Origin: Dehalococcoidia bacterium UBA5748
Lineage (GTDB): Bacteria > Chloroflexota > Dehalococcoidia > Dehalococcoidales > UBA5627
Direction of reading: 5' to 3'
Assembly (NCBI GenBank): GCA_002419135.1
Contig: DIFM01000026.1
Span: 5,381-69,380 of the forward strand
Length of the DNA: 64,000 nt
The translations under genes were made by a program, and so were the position numbers. Below are positions 17,666-54,520 of the stretch, in pieces. Under the pieces are notes generated by a model, which worked only from the letters and a program-made list of their open reading frames with translations, had not been told where the DNA came from and ran no database searches. Position 1 is the stretch's first letter. Each line of letters starts with the position of its first letter.

Positions 17666-17725
17666 GATTGTTACTCCTTGACAGATTGTTCTTTTTATCC
17701 TAACAGCATATATCATGTCTGATTA

Positions 17726-18523: not shown

Positions 18524-18727
18524 TCATCTTTTCCTCACTTGCCATACTCCATAAAGCCTGTTTGTTAATCTTCATAACTAGCCTTTCCTAATTACCTGTC
18601 TAATATGATAGACGGAATAGAGGAGTAAAAAGTTCCACTTTTCTTTGAAAACCTCTATTATTTGGATTGGGTAACAGGGTTTAATCTTAAAGTGTTACAA
18701 TAAAGACTATTAAAACAACATTTAGCT

Positions 18728-19288
18728 TTGGATAAAATGGACGATGTAGAAGAAAGTAAGCTAATTGGGCTAAGTCAGCAAGGAAGCGTAGATGCATTCA
18801 ACGCACTCATAGAATGCTACCAGAAAGAAGCCTTAAAGATAGCTTTTCGTATACTGGGCAATTTGTCGGATGCGGAAGATGTTTGCCAGACCGCATGGAT
18901 GTCTGCCTGGAAATCTATTAAAAATTTTCGAGGGGGCAGCTTTCGGGCATGGATATTCAGCATAGTAGCCAACGCTTGCCGGGATGAATTACGTAAACGT
19001 AAGCGAAAGCGAAACATGGAAACAAGTATTCCCGATTGTCCACTGCCGTCTACAGACGTTCTTACAGATGACATAGTTTTGACCCGAGAAAAGGTAGAAG
19101 CTGTTCAGAAAGCATTACTCCGGTTGCCTTACGAACAACGCCTGGCTGTGATTTTACGTGTATATGTAGACATGAATTATAAAGAAATATCCAAAGTGAT
19201 GAAATGTCCTTTAGGTACCGTCAGGTCGAGATTGAACCGGGGATTACATCGTTTAAGAGACCTTTTACGAGACGGAGAATGTTTGTAA
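18728..19288 (+). CDS. ECF-type RNA polymerase sigma factor
   Basis: 186 aa. Region 2 is AEDVCQTAWMSAW...FRAWIFSIVANACRD and region 4 is NYKEISKVMKCPLGTVRSRLNRG. TTG start; alternative ATG at 18737. Confidence 0.88.
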   Translation: MDKMDDVEESKLIGLSQQGSVDAFNALIECYQKEALKIAFRILGNLSDAEDVCQTAWMSAWKSIKNFRGGSFRAWIFSIVANACRDELRKRKRKRNMETSIPDCPLPSTDVLTDDIVLTREKVEAVQKALLRLPYEQRLAVILRVYVDMNYKEISKVMKCPLGTVRSRLNRGLHRLRDLLRDGECL

Positions 19289-19936: not shown

Positions 19937-20132
19937 ACCCTCATCCGGCATCCCGAATTTTCGGTATGCCACCTTCCCCCGGGGGAAGGCGTTTTCGTGG
20001 GGAAGACCGGGAACATGAGTCCCGATTTATCGGGAAAGAGATTGTAGAGCGGGAATCATATTGATGATTTCGTCGCCGTTATGGTTCGACAGGCTCATCA
20101 CGAACGGCTAAAAAAAGCTCACCACGAACGGC
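19937..20132. repeat. intergenic repeat block
   Basis: Second copy of accctcatccg...ccaccttcccccgggggaaggc, a cccgatttatcggg hairpin, and a third copy of the 57-nt element (20076-20132). Confidence 0.8.
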
Positions 20133-30815: not shown

Positions 30816-30923
30816 TTAGTCTTCCCAGCCGCCGCCTCTACCTATACGGGTAAAACAGAAAACAAGGCCGCCGATGAGGAGTGCCCATACAACTACTGTC
30901 GCAATTATTGCACCGACTTCCAT
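30816..30923 (-). CDS. MetS-like small subunit of NSS transporter (35 aa, one TM helix)
   Basis: Below the ORF-track cutoff. Its ATG overlaps the transporter stop (TAATG), with AAGGAGGAAGAA upstream. Product MEVGAIIATVVVWALLIGGLVFCFTRIGRGGGWED. Confidence 0.6.
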   Translation of the reverse strand: MEVGAIIATVVVWALLIGGLVFCFTRIGRGGGWED

Positions 30924-32437
30924 TATTCTTCCTCCTTAGGACCTTTGGTTTTCATACGGCCCAGTGCAAAACTCAAAATGAGGGTTATACCCAGTATGAG
31001 CCATAAAATGTGTGAGCCGTTAAAAGGACCGATTTGATATCCGCCATAGGCTTCCGAAATATCTTCCATAAAACCGCCGTAGATAACGACAAAGGTCATA
31101 GCTATAGGTATTACCAGCTTGATTACCCAGTCCCACCAGGCGCCGAATTTGAAATCCGAAGTTTCATTGAGATATTCCCTGAGTTTCTTGGCTCCGAAAA
31201 CCCAGCCTACCAGAATACAGGAAATGATACCGGTAATCAGCAGTCCGTAGAAGGATACGGCTCTGTCAACAATATCCAGCCAGTAGAGACCGGCCTGGCT
31301 TGTAAACAATATTCCCAGCAGGAACCCGGCGATACAGACAACCAGTGTTGATTTTTTCAGGCTCCAGCCGAATTTATCCCTGAGCGGAGCGGCAACGCCG
31401 CCGTGTGCCAGGAAGAATGCTGAATCCAATCCCAAGAAGAACAGACAGAAGAAGAAGACTAGACCGATTAAGCCGTTTAGCGCCGGCATCATAGATATAG
31501 CCGCCGGGAAGGTTATAAATGCCAGCCCCAGACCGGAAGCGGCAACATCGGTAGCGGAGACTGATAATGCATGCATTAAAAATCCGACTACGCTGAAAAC
31601 GGCAAAACCGGCGAAGAATGCTGTGGCGCTATCAGCAAAGGTAGTGATAGCGGCATTGTTGTTGACATCCGATTTCTTAGCCATGAAACTGCCGTAGGCA
31701 TACATACCGGCCATACCTACCGACAATGAGAAGGCAACCTGGCTGAAGGCAGCAAACCATACGCCTCCGTCTGTTAATACGCTGAAATCTGTCGATAAAT
31801 AGTAGTTGAGCCCGTCGACTGCTCCGGGAAGGGTAATGCCGCGGATGAAAAGAATGACCAGCAGGACCCACGGAATTGCCACCGTCCATACCACTACTTT
31901 ACCGATAACTCTGGCTCCCTTGAACATAATGAAGAACATTATTATCCATATTACGGCTAATAAGGCAAGAGTCAGCCAAACCTGTGGCCCAAAATCAGTG
32001 GGACCGGACGAAATCTGTAAAATGGTATCATAAAAATACCCGGTGGTACTTTCAGCCGCCTCCTGTCCTGTGCCCCATGCCATAGTAATCGAACCAATGG
32101 CATATCTTAACGACCATGCCATTATCACGGTATAATAGGCGACAATTAAAAAGGCCACAAAAACAGGCCACCAGCCTGCCCATTCCCACTTTTTGCCGAT
32201 ACCTGCAAATACTCCCGGTGCTCCCTTCTGGAAATACTTTCCCATACCGAATTCCATCATCAACCAGGGGATCCCCAGTATTATGAGGCCGATAATCCAG
32301 GCAAATAAGAAAGCGCCTCCGCCATATTCATACGTCATATAAGGAAAGCGCCAAACGTTACCCAGCCCTATGGCTGAGCCGATCGCTGCCATAATAAAGA
32401 GCGACCTACTACCCCATCTTTCTCTTTTTACTTCCAT
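30923..32437 (-). CDS. sodium-dependent transporter, NSS/SNF family
   Basis: 504 aa. AIGSAIGLGNVWRFPY signature and 11-12 TM helices. Confidence 0.92.
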   Translation of the reverse strand: MEVKRERWGSRSLFIMAAIGSAIGLGNVWRFPYMTYEYGGGAFLFAWIIGLIILGIPWLMMEFGMGKYFQKGAPGVFAGIGKKWEWAGWWPVFVAFLIVAYYTVIMAWSLRYAIGSITMAWGTGQEAAESTTGYFYDTILQISSGPTDFGPQVWLTLALLAVIWIIMFFIMFKGARVIGKVVVWTVAIPWVLLVILFIRGITLPGAVDGLNYYLSTDFSVLTDGGVWFAAFSQVAFSLSVGMAGMYAYGSFMAKKSDVNNNAAITTFADSATAFFAGFAVFSVVGFLMHALSVSATDVAASGLGLAFITFPAAISMMPALNGLIGLVFFFCLFFLGLDSAFFLAHGGVAAPLRDKFGWSLKKSTLVVCIAGFLLGILFTSQAGLYWLDIVDRAVSFYGLLITGIISCILVGWVFGAKKLREYLNETSDFKFGAWWDWVIKLVIPIAMTFVVIYGGFMEDISEAYGGYQIGPFNGSHILWLILGITLILSFALGRMKTKGPKEEE

Positions 32438-32684
32438 TGTTTGATCCTTTTCTACCTTCCTTCTAATAGATTTTTAAAACCAAGATAAAAAATGACTCTA
32501 ACTTATACCTCCTTTGTCACGGATTTTTATTAAAAAGCCCAGTTTAGCTTTACATATCCTAACTACCGGACCGGAGTAAACCGGAAATAAAATAAAAAGT
32601 AAATTAACCGCAATTTTAGTAGACTTCAAGCAAAGTGTCAATAGTTATTGGGTGGAAACAAAAGGTTTTTGTTTTAAAAAAGCG

Positions 32685-32717
32685 TTAGCAATCCGCTAGC
32701 AATCCGTTAGCAAAAAC
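32685..32717 (+). repeat. three tandem 11-bp repeats (ttagcaatccg / ctagcaatccg / ttagcaaaaac)
   Basis: Read directly in the AT-rich intergenic region at the left edge of the island. Confidence 0.7.
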
Positions 32718-32872
32718 ATAGTAATAATTCAGTATTAAAACATTAAATATTTTCGCAATCTTAAAACAATTTATTTTGAATAATGAAGATATCATTGTAA
32801 ACTGTGCTTTACAAGTGTAAAATAGCCACAACTAATCATCGTTTATACTTATTAAAGTATTGAGGGGTAAAA

Positions 32873-33133
32873 ATGCCGAGGCTTACCGAACAGGAACAAC
32901 AGGAAATAATCCGCTATCTGGAAACTGATAAACCCCTGCCCGATAAATACCGTTTTCTGCTTTTTGGTGATAAACGCGAAGTAGAGCTTGTCTGGAACGG
33001 CAAAACCAACGAAGTCTGCAATATCGTACTCCCCTTTCAGGTAATCGAGCAGGTCGATGAACCCCGCGCCGAAAAGGACACCCGCCTGCAGATGAGTATG
33101 TTCGATGAGTTGCATAATGGCATAAAAAAATGA
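32873..33133 (+). pseudogene. N-terminal stub (86 aa) of a type III Mod-like DNA methyltransferase
   Basis: KPLPDKYRFLLFGDKREVELVWNGKTNEVCNIVLPFQVIEQVDEPRAEK matches the N-terminus I recall for ~900-aa N6_N4 methylases. It stops before any catalytic motif. Composition switches to AT-rich at about 33120. Confidence 0.6.
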
Positions 33134-33221
33134 CGAATTGTTATTTCTCTTAAAAATAGACATAAATAGTTTAATACTATAGTATCAAAGAATATTATGT
33201 GGTAAAATCAGGCTGATTATC

Positions 33222-36200
33222 ATGCCAGATACAACATTTATCAGTAATGAAAGTAATAAGAAATTAAAGGATAGACTTACTGAACTCATTAAGCATAGTA
33301 AGGAATTAAAATTTCTTGTTGGTTTTTTCTATTTCTCCGGAATTAGAGAATTGTATGACTCTTTAAAGAATAATCCCGCTGTTCAGTTGGATATCCTTGT
33401 TGGTTTGAATGTAGACAGAAAATTAAATAGGCTTACTGAATACAGCGATACGACAAAAGGTTTATCCGATAAAGAAAAATTTGAGCGTTTTCTTACTTCT
33501 ATATCGAAATCAATTAACTCAGATGACTTTGATAATAAGGAATTTTATGAACAGTCTGCATTTTTTATTGAAGCTATTAAACAAGATAGGTTGAGAATCA
33601 GAAAAACATATGACCCGAACCATGCAAAGCTATATATTTTCAAACTGAAAGGCGATGCCGCCGTCGTTAAGAAATCGCTTTTTATTACAGGTAGCAGCAA
33701 TCTGACAAAAGCCGGCCTCTCTCTACAAAACGAATTTAATGTTGAAATCAGTGATTATGGAACTCAAGAAGCTGAAGATTATTTCGATACTTTATGGGAT
33801 GAAGCGGTAAAAATCACTGAGTATGCTGAATTCAAGAAACGTTTAACTGATTTTCTTGATAAGCAAATACTTACAACTGAAGTTACACCATACGAAGCAT
33901 TTGCATTGGTACTTAAAAACTATACTGAGTTGCAGGACCAAAAGCAGATTCAACAACGTTTACTCGATTTACTCGAAGAAAACGGATATAAAAGGTATCA
34001 ATATCAAATTGACGCTGTTACACAAGCTTTAGAGGTAATTAAAAATAATAATGGCGTCATCATTGCCGATGTTGTAGGATTGGGTAAAAGTATCATTGCT
34101 TCACTGGTTGCCAAAAGCCTTAGGGGGCGGGGTGTAATTATTTGTCCGCCGGACCTTATCGGGGATGACAATTACACTACTGGCTGGAAGAAATATAAAA
34201 ACGATTTTAAATTATACGATTGGGAAATTCGTTCATGCGGTTTGCTAACATTAAAAAACACACTTGAACTTGTCCGCAATAATAATGATTTCGAGGTTAT
34301 TATTATAGACGAAGCCCATCGGTTTAGAAACCAGGACACTGAAGCCTATGATGTATTGCGTAATATTTGCCGCGGGAAGACAGTAATCCTGCTTACGGCT
34401 ACTCCCTTTAATAATACACCTGCTGATATTTTATCGTTATTAAGTTTGTTTACAATCCCGGCAAAATCTAATATTACACTGGATGACGATTTAACAATCA
34501 GATTCAGGTCTTATTCTCAAATGTTCCGAAAGCTTTCAAATATAAAAAAGAATTATAATCATAGTAATTCTTCGAAAAAAAATCTGGCTATTGCAGATTA
34601 TCAAGCCCTTTTCGGAGATAAAAATGTCAATTTGAACAAGGTCACAGAAAGGACCAGATATTTATCCAGAAGTATACGTACCGCAATTTCGCCTATTACT
34701 ATCAGACGGAACAGGATAGATTTAAGAAAAGACCCTGTTTACTCGCAAGAAATATATGAACTATCCGATGTTAAAGACCCTTGCGAGATATTTTTTGAAC
34801 TCACTACTGAACAATCTATATTTTATGATAAGGTCTTGGATGAATATTTTGGCGAGAACGGCGAGTTCAGCGGTGCTATTTATCAACCGTTTATATATGA
34901 AAAGGGCCAGAACAGGCATAATGAACAATCAAGAAATGAGGAAGATAACCGCCAGGTAAATATACAGAAAAACCTGTATGATTTTATGAGACGTTTGCTT
35001 GTAAAAAGATTCGAAAGTTCCTTTGGGTCTTTTAGGCAGAGTATTATTAATTTCAAGTCTGTTACTGAAAAAGTGCAGCAGTTTATTAAGAACTCGAATG
35101 GTAAATATATTCTCGACCGCAATCTGCTTGAAAATATTTACGATTTAGATATCGATGAAATAGAAGATGCTTTAAAAGAATACGAAACACTTATCGGAAC
35201 TGGGATTTTCCCCAAAAACTACAAAATTTACGAAATAGACACATTTAAATCCAGGGATAAATTCCTAGCAGATATACAGTCCGATATAGAATTATTTGAC
35301 CGTATTTTAAGCGAATTGGATGCGCTTAAATTGGTCGATAATGACCCAAAGATAAAGAAATTAGCCGGTGAAGTAAAGAAGATAATTGCCAAAAAAGACG
35401 AGCTTGACGAACCGGAAAGAAAAGTCATTATTTTTACGGAATATGTCGATACTGCGAGATACCTGGGAACTTATTTCAACAATGTATTTTCCGATTGCTT
35501 TATCACTGTAAAAGGCGATTTGGATAAGAAAAAAACGGATGAAATATTAAGAAATTTCGACAGTACTCATATTAAGCCGGAAAACAATTACAAGATTCTC
35601 ATTACTACCGATAAAATGGCAGAAGGTTTTAACTTAAACCGGGCAGGTGCGGTGATTAACTACGATATACCTTGGAATCCTACCCGTGTTATTCAACGTG
35701 TCGGACGTATCAACCGCATCAGCAAACGGATATTTAAAAACCTGTACATATATAATTTCTTCCCGACTATCAAGGGCTCAACAGTAGTGAAAAGCCGTCA
35801 AATAGCCACCGAAAAGATGTTTTTAATCCATAACACACTTGGGGAGGATGCCAAAATCTTTGAAATCGATGAAGAACCCACTCCTTCCAGGCTTTTCCAG
35901 AAAATAATGGAAAATCCGGATGAAATGGAGGGTGAGAGCTTTCAGACAAAAGTAAGGCAAATGTATGCCGCTATTGTCAAAGAATCACCGGAGGTAATCG
36001 AGAGAATAAATGAATTGCCTTCAAGAATAAAAGTGGCTAAAGGTTTTAAGGATGACAATCTGGTAGTTTACATCAAAAAAGGAATCGGTTTATTTGCAAG
36101 GGGCTTTGTTAATGGCAGGGATAAACCCGAAGACCTCGTTTTTGAAGATACCTTATCGCTCATAGAATGCGGCAAGGAAGAAAAAGCATTGCAGCTCAGC

Positions 36201-36587
36201 GATTCTTTTTGGAAAAATTATATCAGCGTAAAAAGTTATAAGGATGTCCCGGCTATGCCTTTAGGCCCTGCAAGTATAGAAATTAAAGCCTTAAACAATG
36301 TTAATGCATTACTGGAAGCAAAAATACCGGAAATTGAAGGTTACCTGCCGTTATTGAGAGACCTTAGGGAAGATATGCTCGAATATAAAACGCTACCGGA
36401 TTACACGTTGCGCAGAATAGCTAATCTTAACGCTCAGAATAAAGGCAATGCAAAGCAGAAAAGTGTCAGGGAAGAGTTGGATAAGCTCAAAAAGGAACTC
36501 GGAGAGAATTATCTGGATAAAGTAAAAGCACGAGTAGGCACATTGGAAACCGAGGTTATTATAGCCATTGAAAACATCAAGGAATGA
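33222..36587 (+). CDS. PLD-family (HKD) nuclease domain fused to SNF2-family helicase
   Basis: 1121 aa. HKD motif NHAKLYIF...ITGSSNLTKAG in the first 200 aa. SNF2 motifs: ADVVGLGKS, IIIDEAHRFRN, LLTATPFNN, TTDKMAEGFNLN and DIPWNPTRVIQRVGRINRI. Confidence 0.9.
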   Translation: MPDTTFISNESNKKLKDRLTELIKHSKELKFLVGFFYFSGIRELYDSLKNNPAVQLDILVGLNVDRKLNRLTEYSDTTKGLSDKEKFERFLTSISKSINSDDFDNKEFYEQSAFFIEAIKQDRLRIRKTYDPNHAKLYIFKLKGDAAVVKKSLFITGSSNLTKAGLSLQNEFNVEISDYGTQEAEDYFDTLWDEAVKITEYAEFKKRLTDFLDKQILTTEVTPYEAFALVLKNYTELQDQKQIQQRLLDLLEENGYKRYQYQIDAVTQALEVIKNNNGVIIADVVGLGKSIIASLVAKSLRGRGVIICPPDLIGDDNYTTGWKKYKNDFKLYDWEIRSCGLLTLKNTLELVRNNNDFEVIIIDEAHRFRNQDTEAYDVLRNICRGKTVILLTATPFNNTPADILSLLSLFTIPAKSNITLDDDLTIRFRSYSQMFRKLSNIKKNYNHSNSSKKNLAIADYQALFGDKNVNLNKVTERTRYLSRSIRTAISPITIRRNRIDLRKDPVYSQEIYELSDVKDPCEIFFELTTEQSIFYDKVLDEYFGENGEFSGAIYQPFIYEKGQNRHNEQSRNEEDNRQVNIQKNLYDFMRRLLVKRFESSFGSFRQSIINFKSVTEKVQQFIKNSNGKYILDRNLLENIYDLDIDEIEDALKEYETLIGTGIFPKNYKIYEIDTFKSRDKFLADIQSDIELFDRILSELDALKLVDNDPKIKKLAGEVKKIIAKKDELDEPERKVIIFTEYVDTARYLGTYFNNVFSDCFITVKGDLDKKKTDEILRNFDSTHIKPENNYKILITTDKMAEGFNLNRAGAVINYDIPWNPTRVIQRVGRINRISKRIFKNLYIYNFFPTIKGSTVVKSRQIATEKMFLIHNTLGEDAKIFEIDEEPTPSRLFQKIMENPDEMEGESFQTKVRQMYAAIVKESPEVIERINELPSRIKVAKGFKDDNLVVYIKKGIGLFARGFVNGRDKPEDLVFEDTLSLIECGKEEKALQLSDSFWKNYISVKSYKDVPAMPLGPASIEIKALNNVNALLEAKIPEIEGYLPLLRDLREDMLEYKTLPDYTLRRIANLNAQNKGNAKQKSVREELDKLKKELGENYLDKVKARVGTLETEVIIAIENIKE

Positions 36588-39500
36588 ATATGAATGAAGA
36601 ACGCTTGACCAAACTGATTAACGATTTTAATCCTAAAAACCTCACCTTTTTTCTCCGTGATAAATGTATAAATTATGCCGAAATTCTCCAATTATTGCCC
36701 CAATACGATGATGAAAGGTTCAATGCCTTTCAAAAGCTTGGGGAAATTAAATTCGATAACAACGACAGGCTGGTTGTAGTAACCGCTAAGGTATGTGGTG
36801 ATTTAAGCGAACGCTCCGGTAAAAAAGCCCAGTATGATAAAGCTAAAAAGATACTTAAGGAATTATTGGTCTGCAATGCCGGCTTTTTTATCTATTACGA
36901 TAACAACGGGAATTTCCGTTTCAGCCTCGTTTATGCGCAATACGAAGGCACGAAAGTCAATTTTAACAACTTCCGGCGTTTTACCTACTTTATAGATAAG
37001 CAGCAGACGAATAATACCTTTAAAAAGAGAGTCGGCGAGTGTGATTTTATAAGCCTTGAAAAAATCAAGGATGCTTTCTCGGTCGAGAAGGTTAACAAGG
37101 AATTTTACGGTGAAATCGCCAAATACTATTACAGGCTGACCGATAAAACTCACAAAGAATTGGTATTGCCGTCAGTCGGCGAAAATGATGGAAGCAAATA
37201 TGAGGAATTTGCCGTAAGGCTTATCGGGCGTATTATTTTCTGCTGGTTTTTAAAACACAAATCATCGGCGAACAGAATACCTTTAATCCCGAAAGCTGTT
37301 TTATCATCAGATGCGGTAGATGTTAAAAAAGAATATTACCATTTAATCCTCGAAAAGCTGTTTTTTGAGGTAATGAATAAGCAGCAAGGCAAGAGAACGA
37401 ATGATATCGATTTATATATCCCGAATCACAAGCAAATCCCGTTTTTAAACGGTGGTCTCTTCGAAGCCCACAATAATGATTTTTACAAAGGTACTGTAAA
37501 TAATAATTTAAAGATATCTCCGCAATGGTTTAAGGAATTTTTCGTATTGTTGGAACGCTATAACTTTACAATCGATGAAAACTCGACGGTCGATGCCGAA
37601 GTATCCGTTGACCCGGAAATGCTGGGCAGAATCTTTGAGAACCTGCTGGCGGAAATAGTGCCGGAAACCGGAGAAACCGCCAGAAAGGCTACCGGTAGTT
37701 ACTATACTCCACGTGTTATTGTGGATTACATGGTCGAGCAGTCTTTAAAGCAATACTTGGTAACCAAAACAAGCCTGACTGAAGATATTATCGATTCTCT
37801 GCTTTCGTATGAGGTTGATACCGTAGATATAACCGATAGCGAAAAAACGGCTGTTGTGAAGGCATTGAAGGAAATTAAAGTTATCGACCCAGCCTGCGGT
37901 TCCGGGGCTTTCCCGATGGGTATTTTACATCGAATATTACTGGTTTTGGAGAAAGTAGACCCTAATCTCGAAATTTGGAGAAAGTTGTATCTTAGTACCT
38001 ATCATCCGGTAATGAGAAAAATAATTGAGGACAAACTAAGTAAAGGCAATGAGCAGTATATACGCAAGCTGACGATAATTCAGGATTCCATTTACGGAGT
38101 TGATATACAGCCGATTGCGGTAGAGATAGCTAAGTTAAGATGTTTCCTTTCGCTGGTTGTGGATGAACTGGTTTTTGATAATGAAGATAATCGTGGTATC
38201 GAAGCATTGCCCAATCTGGAGTTCAAATTTGTTGCGGCAAATACCCTTATTGGATTGCCACCAATCGCTAGCCAAAGTGCCTTTGGTGTTACGGATTTAG
38301 TTGAAAAACTTAAGGATTTAAGGGAAAGATACCTACGTAGCTTTGGTGAAGAAAAGTTACAAATCGAAAAGGAGTTCAAAGACACCCAGCAGAAACTCTA
38401 TAAAGAGAATGTTCAATGGGCTTTATCAAGTACTATAGCAAAACAGCTCAGTGATTGGGACCCGTTCTCTTACGAATCCTGTAGCTGGTTCGAGCCTGCG
38501 TGGATGTTTGGGAAAGATGGTTTTGATATTGTGATTGCCAACCCGCCGTATTTAGGGGAAAAAGGACATAAGGAAATATTCCAAAAGATAAAACAAGGTA
38601 CACTCAAAAAATATTATATAGGCAAGATGGATTTATTTTATTTCTTTTTCCATCTGGCTCTTAATCTGAGTGATATTAACTCTCAAATAGCTTTTATAAC
38701 TACGAATTACTACCCGACTGCATCCAGCGCCATTAAACTGCGTAAAGATTTTAAGGAGCGCTCTATAATTCGCAGATTAATCAACTTCAATGAGCTAAAG
38801 ATATTTGAGTCAGCTTTAGGGCAGCATAATATGGTGTCAATAATATCCAAAGGACAGGACGAAAACGCTAAAGTTGATACGTGTATTACTTGCAGAACAG
38901 GTGTAGCTAATATGAACATATTGCACGATATACTAGCTTGGGCGGATATCGAGACTACTTACTACAACTTAACACAAAATGATTTGTATGAAGGGGATGA
39001 ATGTTATATGCGGATTACGGGAAGTGCGGCTTCTGAAGCAACCCCTATACAACATATTCTCAACAAAGTTCAAACCCAAGGGCATAAACTTATCCTGTTT
39101 TGTAATATTAATCAAGGCATTGTTACTGGCGCAGATAAATTAAGCAACAGGCACATTATTAAATATGGAATTAAAGGAAATCGAGGGGATGGCATTTTCG
39201 TTTTAGATAGTGAAGAAATTGCTGACCTTAGAATTCCTTGTGCTGATAAAAAAATATTAAAACCTTGGTTTAAAAATTCGGATATCCTAAAATGGAAAAC
39301 CCAAAAAGAAACACACGAAAATGTGATCTACTTAGACCGACACAACAAAGAAATCTACGAAAACTATGAAAGGCACCTCACAAAATATAAAGCAGTACTT
39401 GCCCAAAGGAGAGAAGTTATTAATGGAGTAATTAACTGGTGGCAACTTCAATGGCCAAGAGATATTAATTTTTGTGGACCTAAAGTTGTTGTTCCCCAGC

Positions 39501-39916
39501 GTAGCTATAAGAATACTTTTGCTTACAATGATATTCCTTGGTATGCAAGTGCAGATGTCTATTTTATAACAGAAAAAGATGAGGGGACAAGCCTAAAATA
39601 TTGTTTAGCGTTATTGAATTCTAAACTGTATTATCTGTGGCTTTACCATAAAGGGAAGCGGAAAGGCGAAATGCTGGAACTATACCAAGTCCCTTTATCC
39701 GAAATTCCTATAAAAAAGATATCGAAAAATAATCAGGAACCTTTTATTGAATTAGTAGCCCAAATCCTCGATATCACTAAAGATGAAGATTACCTTTCTA
39801 ATCCTGCCAAGAAAGCCAAAGTAAAGGATTTGGAACGCGAAATCGACATATTAGTCTATGAGCTATATGAGCTAACACCGGAAGAGATTGCAATCGTCGA
39901 AGGTAATAATAAATGA
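36584..39916 (+). CDS. PglX/MmeI/Eco57I-like N6-adenine DNA methyltransferase with TaqI-C-type specificity region
   Basis: 1110 aa, with an ATGA overlap on the upstream gene. Motifs FLNGGLFE, GSYYTP, VIDPACGSGAFP, IYGVDIQPIAVEIAKLRCFLSL and IANPPY, plus a long C-terminal TRD-like part. Confidence 0.9.
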   Translation: MNMNEERLTKLINDFNPKNLTFFLRDKCINYAEILQLLPQYDDERFNAFQKLGEIKFDNNDRLVVVTAKVCGDLSERSGKKAQYDKAKKILKELLVCNAGFFIYYDNNGNFRFSLVYAQYEGTKVNFNNFRRFTYFIDKQQTNNTFKKRVGECDFISLEKIKDAFSVEKVNKEFYGEIAKYYYRLTDKTHKELVLPSVGENDGSKYEEFAVRLIGRIIFCWFLKHKSSANRIPLIPKAVLSSDAVDVKKEYYHLILEKLFFEVMNKQQGKRTNDIDLYIPNHKQIPFLNGGLFEAHNNDFYKGTVNNNLKISPQWFKEFFVLLERYNFTIDENSTVDAEVSVDPEMLGRIFENLLAEIVPETGETARKATGSYYTPRVIVDYMVEQSLKQYLVTKTSLTEDIIDSLLSYEVDTVDITDSEKTAVVKALKEIKVIDPACGSGAFPMGILHRILLVLEKVDPNLEIWRKLYLSTYHPVMRKIIEDKLSKGNEQYIRKLTIIQDSIYGVDIQPIAVEIAKLRCFLSLVVDELVFDNEDNRGIEALPNLEFKFVAANTLIGLPPIASQSAFGVTDLVEKLKDLRERYLRSFGEEKLQIEKEFKDTQQKLYKENVQWALSSTIAKQLSDWDPFSYESCSWFEPAWMFGKDGFDIVIANPPYLGEKGHKEIFQKIKQGTLKKYYIGKMDLFYFFFHLALNLSDINSQIAFITTNYYPTASSAIKLRKDFKERSIIRRLINFNELKIFESALGQHNMVSIISKGQDENAKVDTCITCRTGVANMNILHDILAWADIETTYYNLTQNDLYEGDECYMRITGSAASEATPIQHILNKVQTQGHKLILFCNINQGIVTGADKLSNRHIIKYGIKGNRGDGIFVLDSEEIADLRIPCADKKILKPWFKNSDILKWKTQKETHENVIYLDRHNKEIYENYERHLTKYKAVLAQRREVINGVINWWQLQWPRDINFCGPKVVVPQRSYKNTFAYNDIPWYASADVYFITEKDEGTSLKYCLALLNSKLYYLWLYHKGKRKGEMLELYQVPLSEIPIKKISKNNQEPFIELVAQILDITKDEDYLSNPAKKAKVKDLEREIDILVYELYELTPEEIAIVEGNNK

Positions 39917-39925
39917 GGAAATAAA

Positions 39926-40564
39926 ATGGCAGAGCAAAAAAATGAAACGATATACCAGTTAAAAATCACTCTTAAAGAAAGCAAACCCCCTATCTGGCGG
40001 CGGATACAGGTTCCCGCCAATATCACTCTCCATAAATTGCACGCGATTCTGCAGTGCGTAATGGGTTGGTATGACTACCATCTCTACGGGTTTCGTATCG
40101 CAGGCATCGAATACGGTATCCCCGACCCGGATGGTGACTTTGACGAGTTTGATTTAAAAGACTCTCGCAGGGCACGGCTAAACAAGGTTATATCCGGTGA
40201 GAAAGCAGTATTCACCTATGATTACGATTTCGGCGACGGCTGGGAACACCAAATTTTAGTCGAGAAAATATTGCCGGCAGAATCAGGCGTACAGTACCCG
40301 GTCTGCCTGACCGGTAAGCGCGCCTGCCCGCCGGAAGATTGCGGCGGTATCGGGGGTTATGAAGACCTGCTTAAAATAATCCGCAACCCGGCGCATGAAG
40401 AATACGAAGAAATGATGGAATGGCTAGGAGGCCCGTTCGACCCGGAGGAATTCGATATCGAAGACATTAACCCGTATCTGGCACGCTATTATAAGACAAC
40501 GAAACCCAAGCGCACCGATGTCCCCGAGGTTTTTCATAGGGCTTTTGAACCGAAAGACGAATAA
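39926..40564 (+). CDS. pRiA4b ORF-3-like (PF07929-type) protein
   Basis: 212 aa. IYQLKITLKESKPPIWRRIQVPANITLHKLHAILQCVMGWYDYHLYGF is the signature I recall for this family. It starts 9 nt after the methyltransferase stop. Confidence 0.85.
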   Translation: MAEQKNETIYQLKITLKESKPPIWRRIQVPANITLHKLHAILQCVMGWYDYHLYGFRIAGIEYGIPDPDGDFDEFDLKDSRRARLNKVISGEKAVFTYDYDFGDGWEHQILVEKILPAESGVQYPVCLTGKRACPPEDCGGIGGYEDLLKIIRNPAHEEYEEMMEWLGGPFDPEEFDIEDINPYLARYYKTTKPKRTDVPEVFHRAFEPKDE

Positions 40565-40581
40565 CTATATAGCAGAAACAG

Positions 40582-40618
40582 AAAAGCCCTTTAAGTTTTA
40601 AATACTTATGGGGCTTTT
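40582..40618 (+). terminator. possible terminator hairpin after the island genes
   Basis: aaaagccc/gggctttt stem with a large loop, followed by tta. Confidence 0.35.
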
Positions 40619-40631
40619 TAGCTTCAAAAAA

Positions 40632-40707
40632 TGGTACCCCTGGTGAGAGTCGAACTCACGACACGCGGTTTAGGAAACCGCTGCTCTATCCACTGAGCTA
40701 CAGGGGC
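40632..40707 (-). tRNA. tRNA-Arg (anticodon CCT)
   Basis: Hand-folded cloverleaf on the minus strand: GCCCCTG acceptor, TAGCTCAGTGGATAGAGC D-arm, anticodon stem GCGGT/ACCGC with loop TTCCTAA, GTTCGACTC T-loop, encoded CCA. Ends are +/-2 nt. Confidence 0.85.
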
Positions 40708-41018
40708 ACGTCGGAAAATATCAACAGCTTCCGGATAAATCTCGATGTCTTTAACAGAGAAATTGTAGCAATAAAGCACTTGTTTGGCAACTGGGAAACG
40801 ACTCTCGCTTGCCTATCAGGTTAATCCACTTTTATAGCCCCATAAACTTATAATAAACGGGATGAAGTGATTTGAGCGCTATTTAAAGCGTAATTATGGA
40901 TATTAACAGACATTTTTTTATAAATAACTATTGACATCAGGCATAAACCGTAGTAACTTCAAGTAAAGGTTCTTTATCTCTTCCCCTGTTATGTGAAAAA
41001 CGGGAGGATAAATAGCGA

Positions 41019-42788
41019 GTGAAAAAGCTATACTTTCTATTGTTTTGTCTTCTGCTTCTGTGCGCCTTCCTGTCCTCCGCCGTTTTATCGGCTGAAGAGT
41101 ACTTTGCCACTGAGAATCCGGTCACTGTCAGGGTCGGTATTTATGAAAACGCACCCAAAATATTCACCGATCAGGATGGTAATGCCTCCGGCTTCTGGGC
41201 TGAAATAACAGAGTACATCGCAAAAGAAGAGGGCTGGAAGATCGAATGGGTTCACGGCAACTGGCAGGAATGCCTGGAGATGCTTGAAAACGGGGAAATC
41301 GATATCATGCCCGATGTCGCCTATAGCGATGAAAGGGCACTGCTTTACGATTTTGCCAATGAAGTATTGGTTGTAAGCTGGTCCCGAATCTATACCGCTA
41401 AAGGGGTTCCCGTACAATCTATACTCGACCTCGACGGTAAAACAATTGCTGTTTTAAAGGGGAGCGTCAATGTCGAAGGGCCGGAAGGCATCAAGGCTCT
41501 GGCAAATTCATTTGATATCAAGTGCACTTTTATAGAGGAAGATAGCTATCTGGCTGTTTTTGAAACTTTAAATAACGGGAATGCCGATGCCGCTGTCGTC
41601 AGCAAGGATTTCGGTGATTTGCATGAGAACGATTACAACATCGAAAAAACCCGCATTATATTTGCCCCTTCAAAGCTGTTTTTTGCATTCACGAAGGGAG
41701 GCGCTTTAACTCCGTCTCTTATCGAAGCAGTTGATACTAACATTAGCCGGTTAAAATCCGATATGGATTCCGCCTATTACGATTTGCTGGGAAAGTGGTT
41801 CGGGGGTGTTGCAGAGAGGGAAGTCATTCCGGGATGGGTTTGGTGGACTGCCGGCGGATTGATGTTATCGATACTTCTGCTTGGCGGAGGGAGTTTTGTT
41901 TTGAGGTCTCAGGTCAATGCCTGCACGAGGGAGTTGACAGAGGAGGTTCTGAAGCGCAAACAGGCAGGGGAAGACTTGAGACAATCGTATGGAAAGCTGG
42001 AGGAACTGGTAAACCTGCGTACCCGCGAATTGAATGAGAAAAAGGATGCCTTGCAGGAAGCCAATGCTCATCTTCAGGAAGTGAACCGTCATAAATCGGT
42101 ATTTTTGGCTAATATGAGCCATGAACTCAGAACTCCGCTGAATTCAATAATCGGTTATACCAAGTTAATGTATGATGGGCTGGATGGAGAAATAAACGAG
42201 GAACAGAAGCAGGATTTACTGGCCGTTTACAATAACGGGAAAAACCTTCTGGAGATTATTAACGGTCTTTTGGACCTCTCCAAGATAGAAGCGGGAAAGA
42301 TTATAATGGCATATGAAGTATTTCCCATCTCCGGTTTGATAAATGAAATAATCACCACTATAGAGCCGTTAGCCAGAGAAAAAGGATTGACTCTGACATA
42401 CAATGTAGACCCGGTGATTGATAACCTTTATGCCGACCGTGCCAAAATACGGCAGGTGTTATTGAATATACTGGGGAATTCGGTTAAGTTCACCTCGAAG
42501 GGAGGCATCGAACTAAATATAACCGCTGATGAGGACAATTACATTTTTACAGTGACCGATACCGGTATCGGAATCGAAAAAGAGAACCTCGAAGTCATTT
42601 TCGACAGCTTTGTCCAGGTCGGTCCGGCGCAAATTGCCGGATATGCCGGTACCGGGCTGGGGTTGGCTGTCTGCAGACAGTTTATCGAGATGCAGGGCGG
42701 CAGGATATGGGCTGAAAGCGAGTTGGGAAAGGGAAGCAAGTTTATCTTTACACTGCCCATGAATAAAGAAATAATGCTGAATTGTTAA
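41019..42788 (+). CDS. sensor histidine kinase with periplasmic solute-binding (SBP_bac_3-like) domain
   Basis: 589 aa with a GTG start. Signal/TM, a type-3 SBP-like domain, a second TM, a coiled coil, an H-box (FLANMSHELRTPLNSI) and an ATPase with N, G1 and G2 boxes. Confidence 0.9.
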   Translation: MKKLYFLLFCLLLLCAFLSSAVLSAEEYFATENPVTVRVGIYENAPKIFTDQDGNASGFWAEITEYIAKEEGWKIEWVHGNWQECLEMLENGEIDIMPDVAYSDERALLYDFANEVLVVSWSRIYTAKGVPVQSILDLDGKTIAVLKGSVNVEGPEGIKALANSFDIKCTFIEEDSYLAVFETLNNGNADAAVVSKDFGDLHENDYNIEKTRIIFAPSKLFFAFTKGGALTPSLIEAVDTNISRLKSDMDSAYYDLLGKWFGGVAEREVIPGWVWWTAGGLMLSILLLGGGSFVLRSQVNACTRELTEEVLKRKQAGEDLRQSYGKLEELVNLRTRELNEKKDALQEANAHLQEVNRHKSVFLANMSHELRTPLNSIIGYTKLMYDGLDGEINEEQKQDLLAVYNNGKNLLEIINGLLDLSKIEAGKIIMAYEVFPISGLINEIITTIEPLAREKGLTLTYNVDPVIDNLYADRAKIRQVLLNILGNSVKFTSKGGIELNITADEDNYIFTVTDTGIGIEKENLEVIFDSFVQVGPAQIAGYAGTGLGLAVCRQFIEMQGGRIWAESELGKGSKFIFTLPMNKEIMLNC

Positions 42789-53386: not shown

Positions 53387-54520
53387 TTATCTGAACAGCT
53401 TCAAGTAGTCTTCGAAATTAAAGATACGATTGCGCTTGTCCCCCGTCATTTCAGTTAGAATCCCCACAGAAAGAAATGTCTGTGTCAGATCGTTGGATGC
53501 TTTTACGGAAAGACCTGTAATCTGCTGGACATCCTTCACTGTAATTACCGGTTTGGAAAAAAGCGCTCGCAACAGGATACCTGCCTGCTTTGCCCGTTTA
53601 CCCATAGCTAATATCTTGTCTTGTTCAATGCTATTTTTTAAATCGGTAATTTTATGAAGCGTCTCTATTCCGTTTTCGGCCGTTTGTATTACTCCTGTTA
53701 GAAAAAATTTTAGCCATTGTGCCATATCATTTTTTATACGTACCAGTTCTAATTTATCGTAATACAGGTTTTTATTCTTTTCAAAGAAATCCGACAGATA
53801 CAGGAGCGGTTTCTCCAAAACACCGGAACTGACCAAGTAAAGTGTAATCAATAATCGCCCCATTCTGCCGTTACCATCAAGAAACGGATGGATTGTTTCA
53901 AACTGATAGTGTGCTATGGCAATACGGATTAAATGGGGTATTTTTATATCGGTATTATGCAGGAATTTTTCAAGGTCTGCCAGTAATTCAGGAAGCTCTG
54001 TATGTACGGGCGGAACAAAAACAGCATCATCAAGGCTGGCTCCGCCAATCCAATTTTGAGACATTCTGAATTCTCCCGGTGTTTTATTTTCACCTCGCCC
54101 ACTGGAAAGTAATATTCGATGGGTATTTCTGATCAGGCGATTAGAAATGGGCAGCTTTGATAACTGCTCTATGGCATCATTCATAGCTAATATATAATTA
54201 TTGACCTCATGCCAGTCATCCCGCTTTTCGGGGGCAATTTCTCTTTCTTCGGCAATAGCTTCTTCTATATTGGTATGTGTGCCTTCTATACGGCTTGAAG
54301 TAACCGCTTCTTTTACGATATGCATCTTAATAAACATATCCGTATCTGGGACGAAGCGTGAAAATGAGTTTAATTCCCCGAGTTTCAGTGAAGCTTTTTC
54401 AAGCATCTCATTTATAATCTCATCTTTCCAGACAAATGAATGGTTGATTTTCTCAGGTAGAAAATACTTGTAACGATTACCTTGCCGCCAGATTCCTGCG
54501 CTAAATTCAGAAATATCCAT
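53387..54520 (-). CDS. fic: Fic family protein (AMPylase-type) with N-terminal inhibitory motif
   Basis: 377 aa. Fic motif HPFLDGNGRMGR, an upstream (S/T)xxxE(G/N) inhibitory helix candidate TSSRIEGT, and a C-terminal wHTH-like region. Confidence 0.9.
   Translation of the reverse strand: MDISEFSAGIWRQGNRYKYFLPEKINHSFVWKDEIINEMLEKASLKLGELNSFSRFVPDTDMFIKMHIVKEAVTSSRIEGTHTNIEEAIAEEREIAPEKRDDWHEVNNYILAMNDAIEQLSKLPISNRLIRNTHRILLSSGRGENKTPGEFRMSQNWIGGASLDDAVFVPPVHTELPELLADLEKFLHNTDIKIPHLIRIAIAHYQFETIHPFLDGNGRMGRLLITLYLVSSGVLEKPLLYLSDFFEKNKNLYYDKLELVRIKNDMAQWLKFFLTGVIQTAENGIETLHKITDLKNSIEQDKILAMGKRAKQAGILLRALFSKPVITVKDVQQITGLSVKASNDLTQTFLSVGILTEMTGDKRNRIFNFEDYLKLFR

What the first reader, a model, noticed from the sequence alone, without database searches (positions are those of the whole stretch)
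32600..40707. Mosaic, compositionally patchy island abutting tRNA-Arg(CCT)
Seen: everything between the NSS transporter promoter region and the tRNA is unrelated to the flanking housekeeping genes and changes composition abruptly. My hand counts of single 60-nt lines gave about 16/60 G+C at 33241-33300 (inside the helicase gene). The same count gave about 33/60 at 4561-4620 (recA), about 26/60 at 32941-33000 (Mod stub) and about 27/60 at 40021-40080 (pRiA4-like gene). So the two giant genes and the 32.45-32.87 kb leader are much more AT-rich than the stub, the third gene and the host. The island ends 67 nt from the 3' end of a tRNA gene, a classic integration hotspot. Inference: this is a defence hotspot in which an AT-rich two-gene cassette replaced most of an older type III-like system. 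I found no integrase and, by eye, no direct repeat of the tRNA 3' end at the left edge.
Basis: partly seen in the sequence, partly recalled or inferred. Interest (0 to 1): 0.6.

Follow-up and report, generated by a model that had tools for sequence, protein, structure and literature searches.

The report
Layered gene island beside a tRNA gene
This is a real but fairly ordinary patchwork of foreign DNA next to a tRNA gene in an uncultured Dehalococcoidales bacterium; it holds an intact two-gene restriction-modification-like defence cassette, the stump of an older methylase gene, and a small gene of unknown function.

Summary
The two large genes have GC 0.36 and 0.38, against 0.456 ± 0.018 for the rest of the window.

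Relatives hold different cargo between the same two flanking genes, a Na+/solute transporter and tRNA-Arg(CCT). One has a binding-protein gene. Four have an unannotatable pair of giant genes. One has only the pRiA4-like gene behind a copy of the tRNA 3' end.

The island has at least four blocks of separate origin:
- A leader plus the first 77 codons of a type III mod gene.
- A 77-nt filler.
- An AT-rich operon: a PLD/HKD-SNF2 helicase-nuclease plus an Eco57I-family adenine methyltransferase. The same operon occurs elsewhere in unrelated flanks.
- A pRiA4_ORF3 gene with a terminator. In a conspecific contig and in a sister species this gene is bracketed by direct repeats containing the tRNA 3' end.

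The window itself has no integrase and no tRNA repeat. "Defence hotspot" is only partly right, because the other cargoes are not recognisably defensive. That the cassette displaced a resident type III system is plausible but unproven. Overall this is a new member of a known kind and of modest interest.

The parts
30923..32437 (-). Na+/solute (SNF/NSS family) transporter gene; the conserved left flank
   Evidence: 504-aa ORF. PF00209 is listed for the identical protein. The gene is 92-95% identical in related Dehalococcoidales MAGs.
32613..32641 (-). Promoter-like site of the transporter. It is the last block conserved with relatives before the island begins.
   Evidence: TTGACA-17-TAAAAT, 11 of 12 matches. 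The 'GTGTCAATAG' block is invariant in 7 species. DNA homology to L012, L014 and L015 ends at 32648-32649, and to L016 at 32677.
32649..39925 (+). Block that the sister species L014 lacks. It comprises leader, mod stub, filler and the two-gene cassette, and stands where L014 has about 0.5 kb.
   Evidence: The left breakpoint is at 32648 against L012 and L014. The right breakpoint is exactly at the pRiA4 ATG against the conspecific contig L011, which is 99.74% identical over 39926-41070. L014 has 525 nt between the equivalent points.
32686..32724 (+). Tandem array of an 11-nt unit (TAGCAA-N5, three to four units). Possibly a vestigial att or arm-type recombinase site.
   Evidence: This is the only such array in 64 kb: 3 overlapping matches against 0.39 expected. 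In 914 kb of other loci it occurs only in L016, 46-70 nt beyond the tRNA-Arg(CCT) 3' end, and in L049, between a tyrosine integrase stop codon and tRNA-Arg(TCG). The expected count there is 0.05. Positions 32697-32718 match the tRNA-proximal end of the L016 island at 21 of 22 bases.
32700..32872 (+). Upstream leader belonging to the type III mod gene
   Evidence: It aligns with the region upstream of a 93%-identical mod allele in L105, from 'CAATCCGTTAGCAAA' to the ATG. None of 500 shuffles reached the score.
32873..33133 (+). Truncated type III mod gene. Homology to mod covers 32873-33105 (codons 1-77). The last 9 codons and the stop are junction-derived.
   Evidence: It is 73% identical over 85 aa to the N-terminus of a 705-aa N6_N4_Mtase Mod. 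That Mod is followed by an 895-aa ResIII helicase on an Aminobacter plasmid. DNA homology to eight other mod genes starts at the ATG or within a few bases of it and, where longest, ends at 33105. The alignment shows canonical Mod continuing in the homologues where the stub diverges.
33106..33182 (.). AT-rich filler of unknown origin between the stub and the cassette
   Evidence: It matches neither the mod genes nor the L044 cassette.
33183..39925 (+). Mobile AT-rich two-gene cassette (restriction-modification-like)
   Evidence: It is 80% identical in DNA to L044 over 33183-38553 and 39773-39914, in an unrelated flank next to a radical SAM gene. Cassette GC there is 0.36 in flanks of 0.49. The gene pair is conserved in L045 and L046, and in a Parabacteroides plasmid at 32% identity.
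33222..36587 (+). PLD/HKD nuclease fused to an SNF2-type helicase, 1121 aa
   Evidence: Pfam hits PLDc_2, SNF2-rel_dom, ResIII and Helicase_C. The best full-length PADLOC match is C3a139 'HKD+Snf2'. Motifs are intact: H134-x-K136, GSSN157, GLGKS286, DEAH363, TATP392, QRVGR825.
36584..39916 (+). Eco57I-family gamma-class N6-adenine methyltransferase with a TaqI_C-type target-recognition domain, 1110 aa. Its start overlaps the helicase stop by 4 nt.
   Evidence: Pfam hits Eco57I, MmeI_Mtase and TaqI_C. PADLOC matches REase_MTase_IIG. Motifs DPACGSGAF435 and NPPY653 are present. The closest solved relative is a site-specific adenine DNA methyltransferase, 7lni.
38553..39773 (+). Target-recognition part of the methyltransferase, swapped relative to the closest cassette
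   Evidence: This stretch cannot be aligned with L044 at DNA level. At protein level, aa 1-657 and 1059-1110 are close to 90% identical, while aa 658-1058 are only about a fifth identical, read by eye from the alignment.
39926..40564 (+). pRiA4_ORF3-family gene of unknown function; an older, separately acquired module
   Evidence: PF07929 scores 248.9 bits. PDB 2i1s, a 'hypothetical protein', matches at E = 2.7e-51. The gene is 90.7% identical in DNA to L014. In L011 and L014 it is preceded by a copy of the tRNA 3' end. It is absent from L012 and L016.
40575..40625 (.). Terminator-like hairpin between the pRiA4 gene and the tRNA. It forms part of the direct repeat seen in L011 and L014.
   Evidence: Inverted repeat I7. 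Folding energy is -19.4 kcal/mol with z = -3.0.
40596..40654 (.). Sequence that is duplicated as a direct repeat in the conspecific contig L011: hairpin arm, 12-nt spacer and 23-24 nt of the tRNA 3' end
   Evidence: L011 positions 1-59 are 100% identical to window 40596-40654. They match L011 976-1034 at 57 of 59 bases.
40632..40707 (-). tRNA-Arg(CCT); the right anchor of the island
   Evidence: Found by ARAGORN and by Rfam RF00005 at 67 bits.

Best explanation
The interval between the transporter promoter and tRNA-Arg(CCT) in this Dehalococcoidales lineage is a recurrent landing site for foreign DNA. The window shows a fixed, integrase-less, layered remnant of several acquisitions.

Layer 1 is a roughly 1-kb module carrying the pRiA4_ORF3 gene. 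It entered by site-specific recombination in the T-loop region of the tRNA and duplicated the tRNA 3' end plus the downstream terminator. That repeat survives in a conspecific contig and in a sister species but has been lost in the window.

Layer 2 is the left end of a horizontally spread type III restriction-modification element: its leader and the first 77 codons of mod.

Layer 3 is an AT-rich two-gene operon that abuts the truncated mod on one side and the pRiA4 start codon on the other.

The operon most likely works as an ATP-dependent restriction-modification system. The Eco57I-family methyltransferase, through its exchangeable target-recognition domain, marks host DNA at N6-adenine. The PLD/HKD-SNF2 protein translocates on unmarked DNA and cuts it.

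Shown here: the composition break, the block boundaries, the separate provenance of each block, the alternative cargo in relatives, the direct repeats in relatives, the intact catalytic motifs, and the swap of the target-recognition domain.

Inferred: the order of the layers, the recombination mechanism, and the defence function.
For: Composition.

Variable site:
- L012 has only a Peripla_BP_4 gene.
- L015, L016, L020 and L025 have a different giant gene pair.
- L014 has a tRNA 3' fragment followed by pRiA4.

Fixed in the species: every contig long enough to show both the identical transporter and the identical pRiA4 gene, from six or more samples, carries the same island. All 8 contigs with the identical methyltransferase run straight into pRiA4 where they are long enough.

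Direct repeats:
- L011 has a 59-nt repeat, 57 of 59 identical, that includes 23-24 nt of the tRNA 3' end. L011 is 99.74% identical to the window from the pRiA4 ATG onward.
- L014 has the same architecture.
- The L016 island is flanked by a 24-nt repeat (21 of 24) with a 15-nt exact core. None of 2000 shuffles reached 15.

Stub.

Cassette autonomy and low GC in another host.

Intact motifs. Swap of the target-recognition domain.

Architectural relatives: HKD-SNF2 helicase plus N6-methyltransferase are proposed to act in an RM-like way in BREX-related/Hma systems (PMC12839542).
Against: - The window has no integrase, no tRNA-fragment repeat and only chance-level words shared between its two edges. 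Site-specific integration is therefore inferred from relatives only.
- L011 begins inside the repeat, so what lies to its left is unknown. It could still carry the cassette further left.
- No res fragment and no relative with intact mod-res at this site were found.
- The dinucleotide signature and the synonymous-codon distance of the cassette are host-like.
- No experiment supports a defence function. The helicase scores far below the NCBIfam cut-offs for DrmD (153.8 against 610). The methyltransferase's N-terminal 160 residues have no assigned fold.
Confidence: 0.72

Rival explanations
1. The leader, mod stub, filler and cassette arrived together as one pre-assembled mosaic fragment. In the donor, the cassette had already disrupted a type III system. 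No intact type III system ever sat at this site.
For: The whole 32649-39925 block is what distinguishes the window from the sister species L014, and the conspecific contig L011 differs right up to the pRiA4 ATG. No relative shows mod-res next to this transporter. The closest intact-looking mod allele, L105, sits in a different flank.
Against: The closest cassette copies (L044, L045, L046) carry no mod stub, so the junction is not a general feature of the cassette. The stub has host-like GC while the cassette does not, which fits different residence times. This argument is weak, because the mod family may simply have that GC natively.
Confidence: 0.3
2. Cargo turnover at this site is driven by homologous recombination in the conserved flanks (transporter and tRNA/sensor kinase) after DNA uptake, not by site-specific integration. 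The short repeats are incidental.
For: The window island and the L016 island contain no recombinase. Breakpoints sit right at the edges of conserved flanking sequence. The right junction lies exactly at a start codon, as selection on a recombinant would favour.
Against: A 59-nt direct repeat ending inside the tRNA T-arm (L011, L014) is the classical footprint of tyrosine-integrase insertion into a tRNA gene. The L016 flanking repeat is significant. The TAGCAA array recurs next to a tyrosine integrase and a tRNA-Arg gene in L049.
Confidence: 0.25
3. The helicase-methyltransferase pair is not a defence system. It is an epigenetic or DNA-repair module: an orphan methyltransferase paired with an SNF2 remodeller.
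For: No experimental data exist. The N-terminal PLD domain has a single HKD motif. The PADLOC and NCBIfam matches to named defence proteins are partial and below the cut-offs.
Against: The pair is a tightly coupled operon conserved across phyla. It is patchily distributed and AT-rich in GC-richer hosts. The target-recognition domain is swapped between near-identical methyltransferases, which is typical of restriction-modification diversification. The HKD, Walker A, DEAH and NPPY motifs are intact. Related HKD-SNF2 plus N6-methyltransferase modules are proposed to be RM-like (PMC12839542).
Confidence: 0.15
4. The region is native core DNA, and its low GC only reflects the lysine/asparagine/isoleucine-rich composition of two large proteins.
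For: The dinucleotide signature and the synonymous-codon distance are within the host range. A few other genes in the window are equally AT-rich, for example 60988-61521 at GC 0.361.
Against: Close relatives lack these genes at this site and carry other cargo. The same cassette occurs at 80% DNA identity in an unrelated flank.
Confidence: 0.02

Closest known systems
tRNA-associated genomic islands inserted by tyrosine integrases (T-loop or 3'-end sublocation of tRNA genes)
   Same: The island sits next to the tRNA 3' end, has atypical composition, and is variably present among relatives. Direct repeats containing 23-25 nt of the tRNA 3' end occur in a conspecific contig and in a sister species.
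   Different: The window copy has neither an integrase nor the flanking repeat. The repeat also covers about 35-50 nt beyond the tRNA, including the terminator hairpin. The island is a stack of at least three unrelated layers.
Type III restriction-modification systems (Mod + Res)
   Same: The stub is the true N-terminus of a type III Mod. The cassette has the same logic as type III: a methyltransferase carrying the specificity domain, plus a helicase-nuclease.
   Different: The stub keeps only 77 of about 700 codons, and res is absent. In the cassette the methyltransferase is gamma-class Eco57I-type rather than N6_N4_Mtase. The nuclease is an N-terminal PLD/HKD rather than a C-terminal PD-(D/E)xK. 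The motor is SNF2-like, and the gene order is reversed.
BREX-related type 2 / Hma systems (HKD-SNF2 helicase + N6-methyltransferase + DUF499 ATPase + DUF3780; PMC12839542)
   Same: Both have an N-terminal HKD nuclease fused to a Swi2/Snf2 helicase next to a large N6-adenine methyltransferase. That paper proposes the same RM-like logic.
   Different: The island has no DUF499 ATPase and no DUF3780 gene, and neither do three other cassette contexts. The PADLOC HmaA match covers only the Helicase_C region (residues 677-836).
Class 1 DISARM (DrmA, DrmB, DrmC-PLD, DrmD-SNF2, DrmMI)
   Same: A PLD nuclease, an SNF2 helicase and an Eco57I-like adenine methyltransferase occur together. DrmD and DrmMI models give partial matches.
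   Different: The core genes DrmA and DrmB (DUF1998) are absent. PLD and SNF2 are fused in one protein. The NCBIfam DrmD score of 153.8 is far below the cut-off of 610.
Type IIG/IIL (Eco57I, MmeI) and Type ISP (LlaGI) single-polypeptide enzymes
   Same: The methyltransferase shares the Eco57I catalytic domain, a weak MmeI helical spacer and a TaqI_C specificity domain. As in Type ISP, an ATP motor, a nuclease, a methyltransferase and a specificity domain are combined.
   Different: The functions are split over two proteins. No N-terminal nuclease domain is detectable in the methyltransferase. The nuclease is of PLD type.

Membership tests
tRNA-associated integrative genomic island | Lies directly next to a tRNA gene, at its 3' end | tested here: met
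   The last island gene ends 67 nt from the 3' end of tRNA-Arg(CCT).
tRNA-associated integrative genomic island | Flanking direct repeat containing the tRNA 3' end | tested here: not met
   No copy exists in the window at up to 3 mismatches, and its two edges share only 8-mers. The feature is met in conspecific L011 (59 nt, 57 of 59) and in sister species L014.
tRNA-associated integrative genomic island | Encodes an integrase or recombinase | tested here: not met
   No recombinase domain is present in any island ORF.
tRNA-associated integrative genomic island | Atypical composition and variable presence among relatives | tested here: met
   GC is 0.36-0.38 against 0.456, and tetranucleotide z reaches 5-9.6. 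Four different contents occupy the same interval in relatives.
Type III restriction-modification (the stub) | Mod subunit with an N6_N4_Mtase catalytic domain | tested here: not met
   Only codons 1-77 remain. The catalytic domain starts near residue 123 in the full-length homologue. The stub has no Pfam hit.
Type III restriction-modification (the stub) | Adjacent Res helicase-nuclease | tested here: not met
   tblastn with the Aminobacter Res finds nothing in the window.
Type III restriction-modification (the cassette) | Two subunits: a methyltransferase with the specificity domain plus an SF2 helicase-nuclease | tested here: met
   Pfam architectures; overlapping genes.
Type III restriction-modification (the cassette) | Beta-class N6_N4_Mtase Mod, and Res with a C-terminal PD-(D/E)xK nuclease | tested here: not met
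   The methyltransferase is Eco57I/gamma-class. The nuclease is an N-terminal PLDc_2.
DISARM | Core genes drmA and drmB (DUF1998) | tested here: not met
   The island has only three intact genes, and none is DrmA or DrmB. The DrmD equivalog scores 153.8 against a cut-off of 610.
BREX | PglZ phosphatase and BrxC/PglY ATPase | tested here: not met
   Both are absent from the island. The PglX models score 36-83 against cut-offs of 400-900.
BREX-related type 2 / Hma | HKD-Swi2/Snf2 helicase next to an N6-methyltransferase | tested here: met
   The family is defined in PMC12839542.
BREX-related type 2 / Hma | DUF499 AAA+ ATPase and DUF3780 gene in the locus | tested here: not met
   Neither occurs in the window island nor in the cassette contexts L044-L046.
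Type IIG restriction-modification | Nuclease, methyltransferase and specificity domain in one polypeptide | tested here: inconclusive
   The methyltransferase and TaqI_C domains are present. The PADLOC REase_MTase_IIG match starts at residue 161. The N-terminal 357 aa give only sub-threshold MmeI_hel and DUF7814 hits and no nuclease domain.
PRiA4_ORF3 (PF07929) | Reaches the Pfam gathering score over the full domain | tested here: met
   248.9 bits against a cut-off of 26.6, covering residues 9-179 of the protein and positions 2-172 of the 173-position profile. PDB 2i1s matches at E = 2.7e-51.

The most novel reading that the evidence does not exclude
The PLD/HKD-SNF2 helicase plus Eco57I-type methyltransferase pair may be a self-sufficient two-gene ATP-dependent restriction-modification class. 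It would be a PLD-nuclease analogue of type III, or a split Type ISP, and a minimal form of the BREX-related/Hma and DISARM modules. It has thousands of relatives but has not been described experimentally. It also appears to move as a bare cassette into pre-existing islands without its own recombinase. In addition, the 11-nt TAGCAA arrays next to tRNA-Arg genes may mark a family of integrative elements in Dehalococcoidia that has not yet been described.
Probability: 0.35. Interest if true: 0.5.

Novelty: new member of a known kind. Interest (0 to 1): 0.33.

Why it matters
The locus is a clean, well-bounded example of how a tRNA-adjacent site in an uncultured Dehalococcoidales bacterium accumulates and overwrites cargo. 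Each layer can be traced to a separate source, and a conspecific contig together with a sister species preserves the earlier state of the pRiA4 end.

It also gives two practical leads:
- A compact, apparently intact two-gene helicase-nuclease/methyltransferase system. It has more than 7000 detectable helicase relatives and an exchangeable specificity domain, and it could be tested directly for phage defence.
- The same site in sister species holds a pair of 1173-aa and 1342-aa proteins with no detectable homology to any annotated family.

None of this changes current concepts. Defence cargo in decayed tRNA islands is expected.

Tried and rejected
- **tRNA 3'-end repeat in the window.** A search with up to 3 mismatches and a shared-word test between the two island edges found nothing beyond chance.
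- **Integrase or transposase in the island.** None was found.
- **Structured RNAs.** An Rfam scan of 31-42 kb found only the tRNA.
- **Compositional signatures beyond GC.** The dinucleotide relative-abundance signature and the synonymous-codon distance show no break. The anomaly is base composition and amino-acid usage.
- **An intact type III system at the same site.** Contexts of the closest stub homologues (P0003, P0014, P0020, P0037, P0044, P0002) lie in other genomic places, often with Mrr, HEPN or ResIII neighbours.
- **pRiA4 as part of a type III system.** Among 53 metagenome loci with pRiA4 homologues, only L058 has Mod-Res upstream. Other neighbours are AddAB, metabolic genes or TPR proteins. 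I rejected this as a general link.
- **pRiA4 as always tRNA-adjacent.** Only about 4 of the 53 loci fit.
- **The cassette on phages.** No relatives were found in viral contigs. On plasmids only distant relatives (at most 40% identity) were found.
- **The TAGCAA motif as a general phage att.** The viral-contig scan gave 43 hits, which by my own rough estimate is about chance level (no expectation was computed). None is within 400 nt of a tRNA gene.
- **A nuclease domain in the methyltransferase N-terminus.** It has no Pfam support.
- **The giant gene pair of L016.** It has no match in Pfam, NCBIfam, PADLOC or PDB sequences.
- **Why the top 120 stub homologues are all short.** This looked odd at first. 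The cause is a mix of contig-end partials, frameshifts and internally deleted mod genes.

Full report
**1. Checking the observation**

The window has one tRNA gene, tRNA-Arg(CCT), at 40632-40707 on the minus strand (Rfam 67 bits). Four ORFs lie on the plus strand between it and the SNF-family transporter gene (30923-32437, minus strand):
- an 86-codon ORF at 32873-33133;
- a 1121-aa ORF at 33222-36587;
- a 1110-aa ORF at 36584-39916;
- a 212-aa ORF at 39926-40564.

The two large genes have GC 0.361 and 0.378. Host 3.3-kb windows average 0.456 ± 0.018 with a minimum of 0.414. The stub (0.467) and the last gene (0.488) are host-like. The 2-kb profile has its minimum over 33-40 kb, and the tetranucleotide distance reaches z = 5 to 9.6.

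The anomaly is in base composition and amino-acid usage (GC1 0.44, GC2 0.29). The dinucleotide signature and a synonymous-codon distance are unremarkable. The last gene ends 67 nt from the tRNA 3' end. No integrase domain was found, and the tRNA 3' end is not repeated anywhere in the window.

**2. Accessory, not core**

The record titles of related contigs place the organism in Dehalococcoidales. Contigs from at least six other samples that carry the identical transporter, pRiA4 or methyltransferase proteins all have the same island.

More distant relatives differ:
- **L012** (transporter 95% identical) has only a 297-aa Peripla_BP_4 gene between transporter and tRNA.
- **L015, L016, L020 and L025** have a pair of 1173-aa and about 1340-aa genes. 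These have no Pfam, NCBIfam, PADLOC or PDB match. Their GC is 0.53 in a 0.46 host, and the first protein has a Tat-like signal.
- **L014** (95%) has a fragment of the tRNA followed by a pRiA4 homologue.

DNA homology to relatives stops at 32648 (32677 for L016). That point is just outside the transporter's promoter-like site, and homology resumes at 40570-40620. The interval is therefore a variable-cargo site. Only the window's cargo is recognisably defensive.

**3. The stub**

The first ~77 codons (32873-33105) are 73% identical to the N-terminus of a 705-aa N6_N4_Mtase protein. On an Aminobacter plasmid that protein is followed by an 895-aa ResIII helicase with a C-terminal TnsA-like nuclease, which is a canonical type III Mod-Res pair.

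DNA homology to eight other mod genes begins at the ATG or within a few bases of it and, where longest, ends at 33105. Beyond that point the homologues continue with '...DARGRQLKGWTNKLIWGDN...IYIDPPF', whereas the window reads 'ELHNGIKK*'. No res fragment is present.

A 576-nt contig, L105, carries a 93%-identical allele (217 of 233 nt) that continues past the breakpoint. Its upstream region, from 'CAATCCGTTAGCAAA' to the ATG, is homologous to window 32700-32872 (0 of 500 shuffles reach the score), but further left it differs. Leader and stub are therefore the left end of a transferable type III element.

This Mod N-terminus is unusually conserved across phyla. It often survives in truncated or internally deleted genes. 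That explains why all of the top homologues were short.

**4. The AT-rich cassette**

ORF1 combines an N-terminal PLD/HKD domain with an SNF2-type SF2 helicase. ORF2 is an Eco57I-family gamma-class adenine methyltransferase with a TaqI_C specificity domain. All catalytic motifs are intact, and the two genes overlap by 4 nt.

The helicase has more than 7000 detectable relatives. In three of three contexts examined (84%, 71% and 66% identity) it is followed by the same kind of methyltransferase, in unrelated flanks and without a mod stub or pRiA4 gene. The pair is still adjacent in a Parabacteroides plasmid at 32% identity.

Against L044, DNA homology runs over 33183-38553 and 39773-39914. That cassette also has GC 0.36 in flanks of 0.49. 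The unalignable part is the specificity domain. Read from the alignment, methyltransferase residues 1-657 and 1059-1110 are close to 90% identical, while 658-1058 are only about a fifth identical. Such a swap is typical of restriction-modification diversification.

**5. Classifying the cassette**

- PADLOC's best full-length match is 'C3a139 HKD+Snf2'. That cluster was first noted near type III CRISPR loci.
- The DrmD, BrxH, HmaA and PglX models match only partially and far below the curated cut-offs.
- The island lacks DrmA/DrmB, PglZ/BrxC, the DUF499 ATPase and DUF3780. It is therefore not DISARM, not BREX and not a BREX-related type 2/Hma system as defined in PMC12839542. It does share with the latter the HKD-SNF2 plus N6-methyltransferase core and the proposed RM-like logic.
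- No nuclease domain is detectable in the methyltransferase N-terminus.

I infer a two-component, ATP-dependent, type III-like restriction-modification mechanism. This has not been tested.

**6. The pRiA4 module and the tRNA**

The last gene is a clear PF07929 member (PDB 2i1s) of unknown function. It is 90.7% identical in DNA to the L014 copy, which is slightly more than the flanking core at 86-88%. It is absent from L012 and L016.

In L014 it is preceded by about 240 nt of gene remnant and by a copy of the terminator hairpin, a 12-nt spacer and 24-25 nt of the tRNA 3' end.

Contig L011 (1452 nt) is 99.74% identical to the window from the pRiA4 ATG (39926) to 41070. Upstream of the ATG it is L014-like. 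It begins with a 59-nt direct repeat (57 of 59) of the segment that ends inside the intact tRNA's T-arm.

The pRiA4 module is therefore bracketed by a tRNA-derived direct repeat in a conspecific haplotype and in a sister species. This is the classical footprint of integrase-mediated insertion into a tRNA gene. In the window the left repeat has been overwritten, and the cassette's last bases abut the pRiA4 ATG.

L011 starts inside the repeat, so what lies to its left is unknown. All eight contigs carrying the identical methyltransferase join it directly to pRiA4. Several window-type contigs break within the repeat.

**7. Other traces of site-specific recombination**

The L016 island is flanked by a 24-nt direct repeat (21 of 24, with a 15-nt exact core). 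None of 2000 shuffles reached 15. Its tRNA-proximal copy lies just beyond the terminator.

The window's left edge carries a unique tandem array of an 11-nt TAGCAA unit at 32686-32724. The array matches that L016 copy at 21 of 22 bases.

In 914 kb of unrelated loci the array occurs only in two places, against 0.05 expected:
- in L016;
- in L049, where it sits between the stop codon of a tyrosine integrase with an Arm-DNA-binding domain and a tRNA-Arg(TCG) gene.

L049 also carries a serine recombinase, and a pRiA4 homologue lies 7.7 kb from that array.

A scan of viral contigs gave 43 hits, roughly the number I would expect by chance, and none is near a tRNA. I treat the array as a possible vestigial att or arm site. 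This is suggestive, not proven.

**8. Verdict**

The island is real, accessory and mosaic, with at least four blocks of independent origin:
- 32700-33105, the left end of a type III element;
- 33106-33182, filler;
- 33183-39925, the cassette;
- 39926-40631, the pRiA4 module with its terminator.

Two points are not established.

First, 'defence hotspot' overstates the case, because the other cargoes at this site are not recognisably defensive.

Second, whether the cassette displaced a resident type III system or arrived already joined to the stub cannot be decided. One locus, L058, does show Mod-Res-pRiA4 in series, but pRiA4 neighbours are otherwise heterogeneous.

This is a new member of a known kind: a decayed tRNA-associated island with restriction-modification cargo. 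Interest is modest. The most useful leads are the untested two-gene system and the unannotatable giant gene pair that occupies the same site in sister species.

Noticed in passing
L016:1751-9324 (also L015, L020, L025): In four related species the same transporter-tRNA interval holds a pair of giant genes (1173 aa, with a Tat-like signal and a hydrophobic C-terminus, and about 1340 aa). They have no match in Pfam, NCBIfam, PADLOC or PDB sequences. Their GC is 0.53 in a 0.46 host, and in L016 they are flanked by a significant 24-nt direct repeat. L025 has a ResIII helicase just beyond them.
   Followed up: partly
window 7912-7935, 11129-11163, 20073-20109; also L044:8323-8346 and L105:24-60: A short dispersed repeat ('GCCGCTCGTGGTGAGCCTGTCGAACC...') occurs three times in the window. 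It also occurs in the contigs that hold the closest cassette copy (L044) and the closest mod allele (L105). This suggests those contigs come from related genomes.
   Followed up: no
L036-L041, L100-L102, clusters of P0002/P0004: The N-terminal ~78 aa of this type III Mod family is extremely conserved across phyla: 73% to an alphaproteobacterial plasmid, and clusters at 90% or more include Methanothrix, Pseudomonadota and Anaerolineae. It repeatedly survives in truncated or internally deleted genes, for example residues 1-87 fused to 372-701. These often sit next to Mrr, HEPN or AAA genes.
   Followed up: partly
L049:2177-10639: A 628-kb metagenome contig carries, in order: tRNA-Arg(TCG), the TAGCAA tandem array, a 385-aa tyrosine integrase with an Arm-DNA-binding domain, an integrase fragment, a 565-aa serine recombinase and a pRiA4 homologue (65% identical). 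This is a possible intact relative of the element type that seeded the window's island.
   Followed up: partly
L058:70-6081: One metagenome contig has Mod, a 164-aa ORF, a frameshifted Res and then a pRiA4 homologue in series. It is the only case among 53 pRiA4 loci that links this gene to the same type III family.
   Followed up: partly
window 60988-61521, 53387-54520, 16760-19288: Other genes in the window are also AT-rich (GC 0.36, 0.40 and 0.42-0.43; GC3 0.35-0.39). Low GC alone does not identify foreign DNA in this genome.
   Followed up: no
window 32724-32744 and 33165-33185: A 21-nt imperfect inverted repeat (76% complementary) brackets the stub region. One arm follows the TAGCAA array and the other sits at the cassette's left boundary. 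It is probably chance in AT-rich DNA.
   Followed up: no
L012:317-1210: The binding-protein gene that fills the site in L012 has no obvious signal peptide. It lies next to the conserved SBP_bac_3/HisKA sensor kinase on the far side of the tRNA, so it may be a sensory partner rather than a transport component.
   Followed up: no
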